Positions 6,001 to 51,000 of a DNA stretch of 64,000 bases are shown here, piece after piece. Origin of the DNA: Octopus vulgaris (lineage: Eukaryota). Location of the stretch: positions 55,118,001 to 55,182,000 of the forward strand of contig OX597829.1 of the NCBI GenBank assembly GCA_951406725.2. Reading direction: 5' to 3'. How positions within the stretch are numbered: the stretch's first letter is position 1; each line of letters starts with the position of its first letter. A program made the position numbers.

Positions 6001-9000
6001 GTTATAGATATATAATATATCAAAAAAATCAAAAAATCAAAAAATCAAAATCAAAATCCAACCAAATCAAATCAGATATCAGAAAGCAGAACCAAAATCG
6101 AAGTCGATCAACATCAATGGAAATTGCAGCTGTGATACCAGTGCCGGTGACAAGTAAGCGAACCATCCGATCGTGGCTGTTGCCAGCGCCGCCCCGACTG
6201 GCCTCCGTGCCGGTTGTAAAAAGCACCATCCGTTCGTGGCCGTTGCCAGTCTCGCCTGGCCCCCGTGCCGGTGGCACGTAGCACCATCCGTTCGTGGCCG
6301 TTGCCAGCCTCGCCTGGCCCCCGTGCCGGTGGCACGTAAAAAGCACCATCCGTCCGTGGCCGTTTGCCAGCTCCGTCTGGCACCTGTGCCGGTGGCACGT
6401 AAAAAGCACCCACTACACTCACGGAGTGGTTGGCGTTAGGAAGGGCATCCAGCCGTAGAAACACTGCCAGATCAGACTGGGCCTGATGCAGCCTTCTGGC
6501 TTCACAGACCCCAGTTGAACCGTCCAACCCATGCTAGCATGGAAAGCGGACGCTAAATGATGATGATGATGATATATATATATATATATATATATATATA
6601 TATATATATATATAATACAAAATGAGAAAATGGAGAAATATATCTAAATCAATCATCAACTATCAGATAATACCGAATCAATACTTTATTAAACCACTCA
6701 CTACACAATAGCAATGATATTATATTGTACAAATATAACAAGACATATCTTATTTTATATATATATATATATAGGAGTTGAACAAAATAATGGAAACACC
6801 TAGCATCATAGCATCATAATTTTGAAATATCTATAAAACCGTCAAAAGCTTCTTTATTTTTTATGCTTTTTGATTTATTATTTGCGTTACTTAATATGTT
6901 TTGCTAAATTTGCTGTTTCTTTTCAGGTATCATCAGAAAAGAGGTAATTAAAATTTATTAAAACGACAGATCTATCGGATTTTCAAAGAGGTGAAATTGT
7001 TGGTGCTGGTATGGCAGGGCGTTAGCGTAACGAAAACAGCCGAAATGTTTGGTGTATGAAGAAGTTCTGTCTCGAAAGTAATGATAGCCTTTAAGAGGGG
7101 GGAAACCTCCTCGTCGAAACAAAACTTTCAGATAGGGACTGTTGGACTCTTATAAGAATTATAAGAAAGGATCACAAAAGTACAGCTCCCAGAATTACTG
7201 CAGAGCTTAATGATCTCCTTAAGAACCAAATTTCCACAAAAACTGTTCGCCGGGAGCTGCACAAAGGCGGATTTCACAGAAAACCACTACTTTCAAAAAC
7301 AAATGTTGCAAAGCGTTTAGAATGGAGTAAAAACCTACAGAATTGGTCCCTAGAGCAGTGGAAGAATGCTATTTTCTCGGACGAGTCATCCTTTACCCTA
7401 TTTCCGTCCACCGGTCGAGTATACGTGGAGACAGCCAAAAGAAGCATTTGATCCAGACTACCTTCTTCCAACTGTTAAACATGGAGGAATATCCGAGATG
7501 ATCTGGGGGGAGGGGGGGCTATATCTTGGAAATCCGCCGGCCCAATGGTTTCCCTTCATGGCAGAATTAATAGTCAAGACCATTTAAGCATTTTAACTGA
7601 TCAAATTCATTCTATGGTTGCGGAACTGTTTCTGAAGGGAAACACAATCTTTCAGGATGATAATGCACCAATTCACACAGCTAAAGTTGTTACTGAATGG
7701 CACGAGGAACATTCTAGTGAAGTTGAACATCTTATCTGGCCACCACAGTCCTCGGATATCAATATTATTGAACATTTATGGTGTTTTTTAGAAAATGAGT
7801 AAGGAGTCGATATCCTCCACTATCATCACTACAAGAACCGGAGACTGTTTTAGATGGAGAATGGAAACAATTTAAACTTTGTACGAGTCTATAACTCGTA
7901 GAATTCAAGTTGTAATTACTGCCAAAGGCGGTCCTACCCCATATGAAAATAAATTTGTTTGAAATTTAAAGGTGTTTCCATTATTCTGTCCAACCCTGTA
8001 TATATACATACATATGTGTATATATATATATATATATATATATATATATATATATATATATATATATATATATATATATACATATGTATGTATATATATA
8101 TATACATACATACATATATATATACACACACACTTGTGCGTGTGTGTGTGCTTGTTCCACATTATCTGATAGCCAGTGTTGGTGCTTTTTTTCGTCCTCA
8201 GCAAAAGGGTCCAATAGCATAAGTAGCGGATTTAAAAAAACAAAATAAAACAAAACGACATAAGTACTTGGGGCGATTTATTCGACTAAAAATACCTCTA
8301 GGCTGTGCGGTAGCATGGCCGTAGTCTAATAAAAGATACCTAAGATATTGCGTGTGTGTGTGTCTATATATATATATTATATACATGCATGTTTGTGAGT
8401 AAAAATATTTATCATTTTCCAGTCCATTCATGATAATTTTACCGTCCCTATTGCTAATAAAGGCGGAGGTAAAGGGTTTCGTCGAAAACCGGGTGGTGTG
8501 CGTATTCTTTACCTTCGCTCTGATATGGGTAAACTAGTATAAATATACTGATATGAAAAAAAAAAAAAAAAAATAGCGTAGAGAAAAAGAAAAAATCAGT
8601 ACTTTGACAAAAGAATCTGTCAACCGCAATAGTGAAATGATAGTAAAAGCTATTTGACAAGACGCGAAAATGAACTCTTAAACTCGAGAATCGCATAGTT
8701 TTATGAAATAAAAAAATAAAAAATCACTTTATTATGAATGCTAACTTTATTTCTGTACAAAATTAAAAAAAAATTAGAAGCTTATTCATTAAGGAACACT
8801 TTTTTAATTGAAGTCTTCGATACCAAAGTGTGGCTGTATATACATTGACATACACGGATATAAAAAAAAGTGACCCTCGCTTTTCATTCATTAATTTATC
8901 TTTCTATTAGCAATTAATATCCGAGTGCGCTTCGTCACCTAAAGCAGAAAATGTCCGATTCTGGTAGAAAACGCTTGAAAATCCACGTTGTTTACTGGTA

Positions 9001-48000: not shown

Positions 48001-51000
48001 TTTTAAATACAATTCCTGATATTTAATTATAAAAATATAATAGGTTTTCAAAACCTTGAATGATTAATAGGGTCCATTTGAATTAAATAGGGATCAAAGG
48101 GGGTTCATATAGAACAAAATGGTTGAGAAACACTATGTTCATTTTAATTAATCATAAAACGGTAAGTATTTTGGGTCTATTCCATCGGGTGTATTATAGG
48201 CAAGCTGTGGGTTTTAAAAATTAAATTTTGGGTTAAGTACCCCATTAACCCCTCACAACTTTTTTATTTTTGGGAATTTTCAGAAAAGATTTGCAAAGTT
48301 GTGTTCTACACACATATATTCATACAATTATGAATAAAAACAAGTGATTTTTTTTTTTTGTGTGTGTGATTTAAGGAAGATTTAGCTGGTATTTTTAGCA
48401 CATCTTATGACCACCTGATACCTTTCTTGTTTGTTTGTCACTGATGATCATCATCATTTAAATGTCCGTTGTCCATGGGTTGGATGGTTTGACCAGGGCT
48501 GGAAGGCTGCACCAGACTCCAGTCTGATTTGGCATGGTTTCTATGGCTGGATGCCTTTCCTAACGCCAATCATTCCGAGAGTGTAATGAATGCTTTTACT
48601 TTTGCTTGGCTACGTGGCTCTTCTCAAGCACGACGTAATGCTAAAGGTTTCACTCATTACCTTCATGAGGCCCAACACTCGAAAGGAGTTTTCCACGTGT
48701 CGCCGGCATCAGTCACTTGTCTCCATGTGAGCCAACGCTCAAAAGGTGCTTTTTATGTCCTTCCGGTATGAGTACCAGTTACATAACACCAGCATCAGCT
48801 ACGACTATGATTTCACTTGGCTTGACCAATCTTCTCACGCACAGCACATCACCAAAGGTCTCGGTTACTAGTCATTGCCTCCGTGAGGCCCAAAGTTCAA
48901 AGATCATGCTTCACCACCTTGCCTCATGTCTTTTTGGGCCTACCTCTTCCACAGGTTCCCTCTGCAATTAGAGATTGTCAGTTCTTTACTCAGATCTTTA
49001 TGTAAATTATTTACTGTTACAAGCACTTTTACTACTATCAATAATAATAACGATGATGATGATGATGATGATACTATATTTTACGGTATATTCCCCCCCA
49101 AATTATGGTAAACATTAGTTGCTATTTGCATCATGTGAACTAACAAATCCAATAATTATACCATAGGACAAAAAAAAACAGTATTATATTGGAAAAATTT
49201 TAATGTTCCATAAAAACTCTTATCTCCAAAGTTAGGGAAAAATAATAAAAAACAAGCCATCATTAGTAATGTATGGTACATACAAACAACAATTGGGGAA
49301 AGAAAGTAGAACATGGGTCTAGTAACAATATATATAATAATTATAACATTAGCAATAGTAATCGTGATGATGATAAATAATAATAATCTAATGTTTTTTT
49401 TTTGAAAAAATAGGTTATTACAATATCGTAGCCTAGAGTTGGGTTAGGCTACATCTATGTGATCTCTGATGTATAATTTTGGCCGATTCGAGCATGGCTG
49501 TTGCCAGTACTGCCTGTGCCGGTGGCACGTAAAAAGCACCCACTACACTCTCGGAGTGGTTGGCGTTAGGAAGGGCATCCAGCTGTAGAAACTCTGCCAG
49601 ATCAAGATTGTAGCCTGGTGCAGCCATGTGGTTCTCCAGCCCTCAGTCAAAATCGTCCAACCCATACTAGCATGGAAAGTGAACGTTAAGCGATGGTGAT
49701 GATGATGACAGTCATGAGTTTTGAGCCTACATTGAGTGCATTGGACCGCAGGGAGATTTTTAAAGCCATTTTTGGGTAAAAAAAGGTGTGTCTTATAGGC
49801 CATCAAATACAGTAATCATGTATTATCTCATAGCTTCTTTGTTCACATTGTTTTGAGTTAATTGTGTATTATCTAATAAATTCAAGATTTCGATGAGGTG
49901 ATTGTTTATTTTTAGAATGACATTGTAGGGAAGGTGTGAGAGGCTAGATCTGGCCAGTCATAACATAAAACGGTTAGAATATTTGGGCTGAATTTGACCA
50001 ATTTTAATGCTAAAGTGTTAAACACCATGTATGTGAAGTGTGATAAAAACCTACCTTTCTTTGTTTACACTTTGTTTATTATTGTTATCTTTGAGGGTGG
50101 TCATATTTTTTTTTACCAATTAACTACATGCACTATATACTTGGTCTTTACTTCAGATTTAATTATTATTATTTCAGTGTCCTTTGCCTGAAATCTTTGT
50201 GTCTCCTGTTTTGTTTAGTCCATTCTTGGGATGGCGAGTCGTTGAAGAGGTCACAGAATGTGTGATGAAAGATTTCAGACAAAGAACACTAAAATAAGAA
50301 CAAAAAAATAAAAAACTGAAGACCTAGTATATAGTCCATGTGGTTCATTGACAAAAAATTAAAAAATGACCACCCCCAAATTTAACAATATCTATTTGAA
50401 CACACAATTTCACATCAAGAATCTTGCAAAACAATTTCATAAACCTAACTTTGTTTATTATTTGAAGCATTTTGAATTTAACCAAATCATTTCTAGATTT
50501 TATAAGAAGCCATCTTAATTCTTTCCCCATGATTAATACATTTTCTAATGAATGTTTATCATGGGAAATATTTCTTATGAATTCAGTGTTTTTTTACTTT
50601 ATTTTGTTTTATCTTTCAGCAAATGACTTGGTTTTGGTTTATTTGGTTGTTGCTTCATGAATAGTCATGGAAAAAACCCTTTTTGGGAATGACATGAATA
50701 TGATACTTTTCAACGAACAAGTTAACCAATGCTGACGAGTTTGAAATTCTTTGAACAAATTTTTTAAATCAAATAAATGATGAATATTAATTATAATCAA
50801 TTTTTGTTTTGTTCGTTATTTCATCTTACCTCCCCCACCATTTCTAACTGTCTGTCATTTTCCTTCTACTCTCTTAAATGAACTTATATAACCCCCCCCC
50901 CCCAGGCTTTTGCAGTCCTCTCTATCTTCTCTTATACCCACTTTCTTTTAAATTGAGGGTACACCTTGACACTTCATCACCACCATCTTTCCTTTCCCAA

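What the first reader, a model, noticed from the sequence alone, without database searches (positions are those of the whole stretch)
8951..50626. Hidden selenoprotein W gene: 279 coding nt in six micro-exons over ~41.7 kb with an in-frame Sec UGA
No exon appears in the ORF track. The spliced product has C16-G-A-U19 and the Rdx/SelW motifs, and a SECIS lies about 250 nt downstream of the UGA in the mRNA. Intron positions (inside the Cys codon, after a 25-nt Sec exon, after a 54-nt exon, after HSKK) match my recollection of vertebrate SELENOW structure, suggesting ancient conservation. Automated pipelines often truncate such genes or call them lncRNA. The Sec UGA precedes several exon junctions, so the mRNA should be NMD-sensitive when selenium is low.
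Basis: partly seen in the sequence, partly recalled or inferred. Interest (0 to 1): 0.85.

Follow-up and report, generated by a model that had tools for sequence, protein, structure and literature searches.

The report
Octopus selenoprotein W gene, mis-annotated publicly
The window holds a real, intact selenoprotein W gene of an octopus, split into six tiny exons over 42 kb with a selenocysteine UGA and a SECIS-like hairpin; it is an ordinary member of a well-known family whose public gene model misses the two exons that carry the active site.

Summary
Six + strand pieces (47, 25, 54, 78, 68 and 7 nt, 279 in all) lie at 8951-50626. All five introns are GT-AG.

A weight matrix from 58 full-length selenoprotein W relatives, none from octopus, ranks exons 1-4 first among all six-frame positions. 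An HMM of the same rows puts the fragments holding exons 4, 5, 3 and 2 as its top four of 3,369, in colinear order.

A public Octopus vulgaris protein (P0002) carries exons 3-6 joined at these junctions, letter for letter. Its first 38 residues come from two other exons, so it lacks the CxxU site. Its shared part matches mouse selenoprotein W (PDB 2NPB, E=6.3e-12).

A full-length SECIS_1 match starts 30 nt after the stop. It scores 25.1 bits, below Rfam's 35.

Verdict: a genuine SelW gene and a new member of a known kind; in effect an annotation correction. Conservation of intron positions with vertebrates is only partly checked. NMD sensitivity is inferred. The joined six-exon product was never built or searched.

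The parts
8951..8997 (+). Exon 1 coding part: ATG, 15 codons, plus the first two bases (TG) of the Cys codon; donor GT at 8998
   Evidence: Sequence read. Family weight matrix ranks it 1 of 97,772 scored positions (23.6 vs 13.4 bits). By HMM alone it is weak: its fragment is 14th, E=13.
17744..17768 (+). Exon 2 (25 nt): completes Cys16, then Gly, Ala, Sec (TGA 17751-17753) and five more codons
   Evidence: Only match to the pattern on the + strand. Sequence. Weight matrix rank 1 (23.2 vs 12.2), still rank 1 of 87,902 with the Sec column ignored. HMM E=0.1, fourth-best fragment of 3,369.
31442..31495 (+). Exon 3 (54 nt, 18 codons)
   Evidence: One of 40 AG/54-nt-open/GT candidates. Weight matrix rank 1 of 71,514 (36.1 vs 9.1). 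HMM E=0.085. 100% match to residues 39-56 of public protein P0002.
45445..45522 (+). Exon 4 (78 nt, 26 codons), ends with HSKK
   Evidence: Only HSKK in the window. Weight matrix rank 1 of 56,267 (48.3 vs -16.9). HMM E=2.9e-6. 100% match to P0002 residues 57-82.
47684..47751 (+). Exon 5 (68 nt: 22 codons plus two bases); the donor GT is followed by GA, so the unspliced frame would read one more Ala and stop
   Evidence: One of 4 AG/68-nt-open/GT candidates. HMM E=0.0049. 100% match to P0002 residues 83-105. Sequence.
50620..50626 (+). Coding start of exon 6: last base of the Ala codon, Lys, TGA stop (50624-50626)
   Evidence: Sequence, numbers. P0002 ends with the same Ala-Lys, so its annotators used this junction.
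50641..50722 (+). SECIS-like element. Helix I 50641-50652 / 50711-50722; AUGA core 50657-50660; A-run 50671-50676; 3-bp mini-stem; GA of the core 50702-50703.
   Evidence: Rfam SECIS_1 at 50649-50714, 25.1 bits (gathering 35), E=0.005, model 1-64 of 64. The unconstrained fold gives the same architecture. It was not reported in the whole-window gathering search or the 6-kb search.
50772..50777 (+). AATAAA, candidate poly(A) signal about 50 nt after the SECIS-like element
   Evidence: Only AATAAA/ATTAAA found in 50627-51400. Function is inferred.
11314..11344 (+). First coding exon of the public model P0002 (ATG plus 31 nt), inside intron 1 of the model proposed here; status uncertain
   Evidence: tblastn of P0002. 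Sequence with GT donor. No family homology: the HMM alignment of P0002 starts at residue 39.
16141..16223 (+). Second coding exon of the public model P0002 (83 nt), inside intron 1, spliced by that model straight to exon 3 and so skipping exon 2; status uncertain
   Evidence: 100% tblastn match of P0002 residues 11-38. AG/GT sites. Not repeated elsewhere in the window.

Best explanation
This is the selenoprotein W (SELENOW-type, Rdx/thioredoxin-like family) gene of Octopus vulgaris or a near-identical relative.

Shown from sequence:
- Six exons spread over 41.7 kb are joined through five GT-AG introns.
- The reading frame is 92 codons and places a CxxU motif at residues 16-19.
- The Cys codon is split by intron 1. 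The Sec codon lies in a 25-nt exon.
- The frame ends 7 nt into the last exon. A type-2-like SECIS hairpin starts 30 nt after the stop, and an AATAAA follows.

Inferred from what is established for eukaryotic selenoproteins (recalled):
- The SECIS recruits SBP2, eEFSec and Sec-tRNA, so the UGA 252 nt upstream is read as selenocysteine.
- The ~10 kDa product acts as a small thiol/selenol oxidoreductase through its Cys-x-x-Sec pair.
- When Sec-tRNA is scarce the UGA acts as a stop 215 nt before the last exon junction, which would expose the mRNA to nonsense-mediated decay.

The public gene model for this locus avoids the UGA by using two other upstream exons. It is probably wrong at its 5' end.
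For: Exon anatomy and splice sites.

Family matrix and HMM, built from 58 full-length family rows with no octopus row:
- Exons 1-4 each rank first in the window.
- The four best of 3,369 six-frame fragments are those holding exons 4, 5, 3 and 2 (E = 2.9e-6, 0.0049, 0.085, 0.1). They are colinear in both genome and profile. The next unrelated fragment has E=4.3.
- The Cys column is C in 58 of 58 rows. The Sec column is W in 56 and C in 2.

Public protein P0002:
- It was found with the contiguous ORF around exon 4 alone (E=6.1e-8).
- It is named 'Hypothetical predicted protein [Octopus vulgaris]' by NCBI and 'Selenoprotein W' by UniRef.
- It carries exons 3-6 joined at exactly these junctions.
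- It matches mouse selenoprotein W, PDB 2npb_A, at E=6.3e-12. The alignment starts at the first residue of exon 3.
- A profile search seeded with P0002 and two relatives found 326 proteins at E<=0.001 among 1,201 candidates. Many of these are named selenoprotein W.

SECIS: a full-length SECIS_1 match, E=0.005, lies 30 nt after the stop, with the expected fold. Scaling that E-value to one family over both strands of the whole window gives about 4e-4. This figure is my arithmetic, not a tool output.
Against: - Exon-by-exon forward searches were blind. Pfam on exons 4 and 5 gave no Rdx. PDB phmmer on exon 4, exon 5 and the exon 3 ORF gave no SelW. The word-index search with the exon 4 ORF found no candidate.
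- P0002 scores 21.1 bits on Pfam Rdx, below the 22.6 cut-off.
- The SECIS match is below Rfam's gathering score (25.1 vs 35). It was absent from the whole-window and 6-kb searches.
- The SECIS fold is not unusually stable: z = -1.38, and 19 of 200 shuffles fold as well.
- Exon 1 is not significant by HMM alone (E=13).
- In 56 of the 58 rows used for the matrix, the Sec position is written W. I take this to be TGA read through by the sources' gene callers, but I could not verify it.
- No transcript data were available, so the exon 1-2 and 2-3 junctions rest on sequence logic only.
Confidence: 0.93

Rival explanations
1. The public model (P0002) is a real product: transcripts start at 11314, use the exon at 16141-16223, skip the Sec exon and encode a 106-residue protein without CxxU. 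This could be the only product or an alternative isoform beside the Sec form.
For: Both extra exons have an ATG or canonical AG/GT sites and keep the frame into exon 3. They are not repeat copies within the window. SelW forms lacking the first exon are reported for Schistosoma japonicum, Lottia and Trichoplax (passages of PMC3828610).
Against: The 38 N-terminal residues show no family homology. Exons 1 and 2 are the best family matches in the whole window. A SECIS would be useless to a Sec-free protein. Loss of the CxxU strand-helix would remove the redox site. Gene predictors routinely avoid in-frame TGA: 51 of 120 family rows lack that part.
Confidence: 0.1
2. The locus is a decaying or non-functional copy: the exons look intact but are no longer expressed or no longer decoded as Sec.
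For: The SECIS match is below the gathering score and not thermodynamically remarkable. Introns are very long and full of repeats and transposon remnants. No expression data were seen.
Against: There is no frameshift or stop other than the Sec TGA in any exon. All ten splice dinucleotides are canonical. Every position that the 58-row HMM writes as strongly conserved (in capitals) is kept in the fragments holding exons 2, 4 and 5. No second copy exists in the window. The public annotators built a spliced model through exons 3-6.
Confidence: 0.04
3. The exon chain is a chance assembly of short open pieces in a repeat-rich region.
For: Short AG...GT open pieces are common: 40 candidates for a 54-nt exon and 4 for a 68-nt exon.
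Against: Four independent first ranks among tens of thousands of positions, all on one strand and in family order. Exact agreement with an independent public model for exons 3-6. A SECIS match in the right place.
Confidence: 0.005

Closest known systems
Mammalian selenoprotein W (SELENOW/SelW1; mouse structure PDB 2NPB)
   Same: The part encoded by exons 3-6, as carried by P0002, aligns to chain residues 19-85 at E=6.3e-12, with about 32 identical columns of 68 by my count. Both have CxxU near the N-terminus. By the passages of PMC3316567, both have six exons, a first boundary just before CxxU, and a SECIS wholly in the last exon, 37 nt from its start here against an average of 38 nt in mammals.
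   Different: The octopus protein has six extra N-terminal residues before the conserved strand. This is my reading of the alignment together with the exon coordinates. Its last 7 coding nt lie in exon 6, whereas mammalian coding ends in exon 5. The gene spans 41.7 kb. Assignment to subfamily W1 or W2 was not tested by a tree.
Mollusc SelW genes described in Lottia gigantea (Lg.SelW1_a/b; passages of PMC3828610 and PMC3473315)
   Same: Same phylum and same family. The chimeric public Lottia model P0051 shows boundaries before the exon 3 homologue, after its 18 residues, after HSKK and before the GDGY exon, as here.
   Different: The Lottia genes are reported as a tandem pair. Only one copy is in this window. 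I did not see the Lottia DNA.
Unnamed 86-residue record P0007 (Pfam Rdx precomputed)
   Same: Best full-length relative of P0002: 57% identity over 62% of P0002, E=1.8e-14. It has the same N-terminal strand, C-G-x-[Sec position]-G-Y, HSKK and GDGY.
   Different: Its organism is unknown. The Sec position is written W in that record.

Membership tests
Selenoprotein W (Rdx family, Pfam PF10262) | CxxU (or CxxC) redox motif directly after the first strand, near the N-terminus | tested here: met
   Cys16 (split codon TG|T), Gly, Ala, TGA at 17751-17753, read. Exons 1 and 2 rank first with the family matrix. The Cys column is invariant in 58 of 58 rows.
Selenoprotein W (Rdx family, Pfam PF10262) | Significant sequence similarity to established SelW proteins over the rest of the domain | tested here: met
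   P0002 (exons 3-6) against PDB 2npb_A 'Selenoprotein W', E=6.3e-12. P0002 against P0007, E=1.8e-14. Fragments holding exons 4 and 5 against the 58-row HMM, E=2.9e-6 and 0.0049.
Selenoprotein W (Rdx family, Pfam PF10262) | Score above Pfam's gathering cut-off for Rdx | tested here: inconclusive
P0002, which lacks the CxxU part, scores 21.1 bits against a 22.6 cut-off, E=3.7e-4. Single exons give no Rdx hit.
Eukaryotic selenoprotein gene | SECIS element in the 3' UTR: AUGA/GA core, unpaired A's, two helices | tested here: inconclusive
   Full-length SECIS_1 match at 50649-50714, E=0.005, but 25.1 bits against a gathering score of 35. The core, A-run and both helices are reproduced by an unconstrained fold. 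The element was not found in the wider searches. SECISearch3 is not available here.
Eukaryotic selenoprotein gene | In-frame UGA aligned with Sec/Cys of homologues, with conserved coding sequence continuing downstream of it | tested here: met
   Homology continues through exons 2-6 after the TGA. The aligned column holds the Sec position of the family.
Selenoprotein W (Rdx family) | Thioredoxin-like fold | not tested
   Structure prediction would need the joined product, which was left out. The fold is inferred only from the sequence match to 2NPB.
Eukaryotic selenoprotein gene | Actual selenocysteine insertion and expression | not testable with these tools

The most novel reading that the evidence does not exclude
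The locus may make two products. One is the Sec form from exons 1-6. The other would start at 11314, use the exon at 16141-16223, skip the 25-nt Sec exon and so escape both the need for selenium and UGA-triggered decay. That would be a selenium-independent isoform without the redox site, like the 'first exon missing' SelW forms reported in Schistosoma, Lottia and Trichoplax (PMC3828610 passages).

A second, milder reading: the last intron is anchored to the SECIS rather than to the protein, 37 nt before the core here against an average of 38 nt in mammals. It would then have been kept since the protostome-deuterostome ancestor while the stop codon moved across it.
Probability: 0.1. Interest if true: 0.45.

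Novelty: new member of a known kind. Interest (0 to 1): 0.22.

Why it matters
The practical value is a corrected gene model. The only octopus protein recovered for this locus is a public prediction with a false N-terminus and no selenocysteine. Any selenoproteome count, redox-biology study or proteomics database for octopus would therefore miss the active form.

The case also shows how widespread the error is. Of 120 family rows examined, 51 lack the CxxU part, and 29 of those 51 start exactly at the exon 2/3 boundary.

It adds a cephalopod data point to the question of how old the SelW intron positions are.

It does not reveal a new mechanism or family.

Tried and rejected
Searches that led nowhere:
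- Whole-window Rfam search at gathering scores: 0 matches.
- Rfam at E<=10 on 48000-54000: 38 matches, all microsatellite-driven miRNA-like or similar, and no SECIS.
- Pfam on exons 4 and 5 alone: only chance-level BACON_2 and DUF5836.
- PDB phmmer on exon 4: 0 hits. On exon 5: one EF-hand chance hit, E=1.7. On the exon 3 ORF: 0 hits.
With the 58-residue contiguous ORF it found no candidate.
- ESM Atlas on exon 4 alone: Rdx-bearing clusters at ranks 2 and 3, but at a score of 0.79, which the tool calls a lead only.
- Ungapped matrix scan for exon 5: rank 6 of 61,496.
- The other five hits (P0001, P0003-P0006) are long proteins. I fetched only P0005, a repeat protein with no SelW features, and dropped them all.

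Literature:
- 'octopus' with 'selenoprotein W': 0 papers.
- 'cephalopod' with 'selenoprotein' and 'SECIS': 3 papers hold the terms and 2 were listed. Neither title concerns cephalopod SelW. For PMC5100079 I saw only the title and the start of the abstract. Passages of the other (PMC8557442) concern retroelements.
- So I found no printed description of a cephalopod SelW in that library. Subscription papers and supplements were not visible.

Rejected ideas:
- A second SelW copy or pseudogene in the window. No other position approaches the exon scores.
- Exons A and B of the public model being repeat-derived. They have no other copy in the window.

Not done:
- The joined six-exon product was not built, translated, searched or folded anywhere.
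- The closed collections (metagenome contigs, viral contigs) and the genome-contig scan (bacteria and archaea only) were not used.

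
Full report
**What is there**

The window has no N, about 35-42% G+C, and is rich in microsatellites and transposon remnants.

- E1 8951-8997 starts with ATG in a CAGAAAATGT context. It runs 15 codons and ends with TG before a GTAAG donor.
- E2 17744-17768 begins with the T that completes a Cys codon, followed by Gly, Ala and TGA (17751-17753), then five more codons.
- E3 31442-31495 has 18 codons.
- E4 45445-45522 has 26 codons and ends in HSKK.
- E5 47684-47751 has 22 codons plus two bases.
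- E6 starts at 50620 with one base, a Lys codon and the TGA stop at 50624-50626.

The lengths add to 279. The five introns (8746, 13673, 13949, 2161 and 2868 nt) are all GT-AG with pyrimidine-rich acceptors.

I chose E3 and E5 by eye from 40 and 4 mechanical candidates. The tests below were made afterwards and do not depend on that choice.

**Is it more than chance?**

I therefore never joined the exons in any tool, script or note.

Forward searches with single exons were too short to see anything.
- Pfam found no Rdx on exons 4 and 5.
- PDB phmmer found no SelW with exon 4, exon 5 or the exon 3 ORF.
It found no candidate for the 58-residue contiguous ORF that holds exon 4.
- The ESM Atlas on exon 4 alone placed two Rdx-bearing clusters at ranks 2 and 3, but only at a score of 0.79, which is a lead and no more.

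The same contiguous ORF, scored by HMMER against 1.84 billion representatives, gave six proteins at E<=0.001. One was P0002 (106 residues, E=6.1e-8, 96% identity over the exon). The other five are long proteins that I did not pursue. The one I fetched, P0005, is an unrelated repeat protein.

**The public protein**

NCBI names P0002 'Hypothetical predicted protein [Octopus vulgaris]' and UniRef names it 'Selenoprotein W'. Mapped back with tblastn, it matches the window at 100% in every piece.
- Residues 39-56 are E3, 57-82 are E4, and 83-105 are E5. The last two residues are those of the E5/E6 junction.
The window is O. vulgaris or something nearly identical.
- Its first 38 residues come from two other exons inside intron 1: 11314-11344 and 16141-16223. 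Both have canonical sites. The model splices from 16223 straight to E3, skipping E2 and its TGA.
- These 38 residues have no family homology. The HMM alignment of P0002 starts at residue 39.

The shared part of P0002 matches mouse selenoprotein W (PDB 2npb_A) at E=6.3e-12, and the alignment starts at the first residue of E3. On Pfam Rdx it scores 21.1 bits, just under the 22.6 cut-off. That is what one expects of a domain whose first strand and CxxU are missing.

**Testing exons 1 and 2 from the family side**

- A profile of P0002 and two relatives found 326 proteins at E<=0.001 among 1,201 candidates, of which 120 were listed. Many are named selenoprotein W, from fishes, frogs, reptiles, birds, amphioxus, an acorn worm, a crab, a coral and three gastropods.
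- Of the 119 rows other than P0002, 58 carry a C-x-x-Z-x-Y N-terminus. Z is W in 56 and C in 2. I take the W to be TGA read through by the sources' gene callers, which I could not verify.
- I built a weight matrix per exon-sized block from these 58 rows, none of them octopus, and slid it over all six frames of the window.
- E1, E2, E3 and E4 each came first, by wide margins: 23.6 vs 13.4, 23.2 vs 12.2, 36.1 vs 9.1 and 48.3 vs -16.9 bits.
- With the Sec column ignored, E2 is still first of 87,902.
- E5 fails ungapped (rank 6 of 61,496) because of a one-residue indel.
- An HMM of the same rows, searched against 3,369 stop-to-stop fragments, puts the fragments holding E4, E5, E3 and E2 at ranks 1-4 (E = 2.9e-6, 0.0049, 0.085, 0.1). 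They cover successive profile positions. The best unrelated fragment has E=4.3. The E1 fragment is only 14th (E=13).
- Beyond its first rank in the matrix scan, E1 ends in TG exactly where the family's invariant Cys must be completed by the first base of E2.

**SECIS**

- Rfam's SECIS_1 model matches 50649-50714 over its full length (1-64) at 25.1 bits and E=0.005 when 50600-50800 is searched.
- The score is below the curated 35 bits. The match did not appear in the whole-window or 6-kb searches, whose filters are stricter.
- An unconstrained fold of 50640-50725 gives the expected architecture. It has an 11-bp lower helix, an internal loop with AUGA (50657-50660) opposite GA (50702-50703), an 8-bp upper helix with one mismatch, a run of six unpaired A, and a 3-bp mini-stem. 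By recalled classification this is a type 2 SECIS.
- The fold is not unusually stable: z = -1.38, and 19 of 200 shuffles do as well.
- The core starts 30 nt after the stop, 37 nt into exon 6, with 252 nt between it and the Sec UGA in the message. An AATAAA follows at 50772.
- Position and anatomy make this convincing to me, but by Rfam's own standard it is sub-threshold.

**How it most likely works**

Shown: the exon chain, the split Cys codon, the in-frame TGA at the family's Sec position, continued homology after it, and a SECIS-like element in the last exon.

Inferred from established selenoprotein biology (recalled):
- SECIS-dependent recoding of UGA by SBP2, eEFSec and Sec-tRNA.
- A small thioredoxin-like oxidoreductase acting through Cys16 and Sec19.

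The NMD claim is also an inference.
- The UGA lies 215 nt before the last exon junction, well beyond the 50-55 nt rule quoted for mammals.
- In human cells SelW mRNA was the most selenium-responsive, and its loss depended on NMD factors (passages of PMC4105750).
- Whether octopus NMD follows that rule is untested.

**Comparison with what is known**

SelW is reported across metazoans, including the mollusc Lottia with tandem SelW1 genes (passages of PMC3473315 and PMC3828610). Invertebrate genes also fall in the SELENOW2 branch (passages of PMC13134290). I did not build a tree, so W1 versus W2 is open. The named relatives recovered are labelled W or W1.

On intron positions:
- Passages of PMC3316567 state that mammalian SelW has six exons, with coding in exons 1-5. 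Nine residues from exon 1 lie immediately upstream of CxxU. The SECIS is wholly in exon 6, on average 38 nt from its start.
- The octopus gene agrees on exon number, on the first boundary to within a codon, and on the SECIS distance (37 nt).
- It differs in that the last intron falls 7 nt before the end of the coding region.
I could not check them against vertebrate DNA or the paper's figures.
- Indirect support: 51 of 120 family rows lack the CxxU part, and 29 of those 51 begin their homology at profile positions 17-19, the exon 2/3 boundary. Several have a preceding stretch that looks like a translated pyrimidine tract ending in Gln. They come from fishes, frogs, birds, lizards, amphioxus, gastropods and a coral.
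- The chimeric Lottia model P0051 shows breaks before and after the 18-residue exon 3 homologue, after HSKK and before the GDGY exon.

**Novelty and verdict**

I found no paper on a cephalopod SelW in the searchable library. The only octopus protein recovered is the mis-modelled P0002.
- Other length classes were not searched.
- Cluster membership could not be looked up.
- Supplements were closed.

It is an ordinary member of a well-known family, and its value is as an annotation correction. I score interest at 0.22.

The boldest reading left open is that the public model's 5' exons mark a genuine Sec-exon-skipping isoform. I put that at about 0.1.

Noticed in passing
window 47749-47755: The donor of intron 5 is followed by GA, so the unspliced frame reads GCG TGA. 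A transcript retaining intron 5 would encode the same protein minus its last Lys, but its SECIS would lie about 2.9 kb further downstream.
   Followed up: no
window 50620-50660: The last exon starts 37 nt before the SECIS core. Passages of PMC3316567 give an average of 38 nt for mammalian SelW exon 6. In octopus the stop codon lies after this intron; in mammals it lies before. This suggests an intron anchored to the SECIS rather than to the protein end.
   Followed up: partly
family rows P0002, P0007-P0125 (not in the window): 51 of 120 public SelW-family proteins lack the CxxU part, and 29 of these start exactly at the exon 2/3 boundary. The Lottia record P0051 is a chimera of two tandem SelW genes with read-through into an intron. 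P0009 and P0037 look like models with a retained intron after the LEV motif.
   Followed up: partly
window 40493-41329 (-) and 54763-56720 (+): Two diverged copies of one mobile-element-like coding region. One is inside intron 3; the other lies downstream of the gene and is split over two frames. They share 77% identity over 70 residues and 54% over 136 residues. There are no Pfam hits. The Atlas points to clusters with HTH_animal and some RVT_1 at a score of 0.94 with low recognition. By eye and recall, the C-terminal part resembles a GIY-YIG nuclease, as in Penelope-like retroelements.
   Followed up: partly
window 7095-7451 (+) and 53389-53973 (-): Remnants of Tc1/mariner-type transposases: Pfam HTH_Tnp_Tc3_2, E=1e-12 and 2.4e-14.
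   Followed up: no
window 35879-36409 (-): An open frame with a PHD-finger match just under the cut-off (23.6 vs 24 bits), next to reverse-transcriptase-like text. Probably part of a retroelement inside intron 3.
   Followed up: no
window 6029-6533, 11922-12287, 16689-17069, 33094-33633, 37420-37473: A short interspersed repeat recurs on both strands. Its translation carries the same peptide-like string (…AVFLQLDALPNANHS…). Several copies lie in the SelW introns.
   Followed up: no
window 7943-8166, 39726-39993, 51640-51980, 63229-63470: Long CA/TA-type microsatellite arrays. These cause the many sub-threshold miRNA-like Rfam matches.
   Followed up: no
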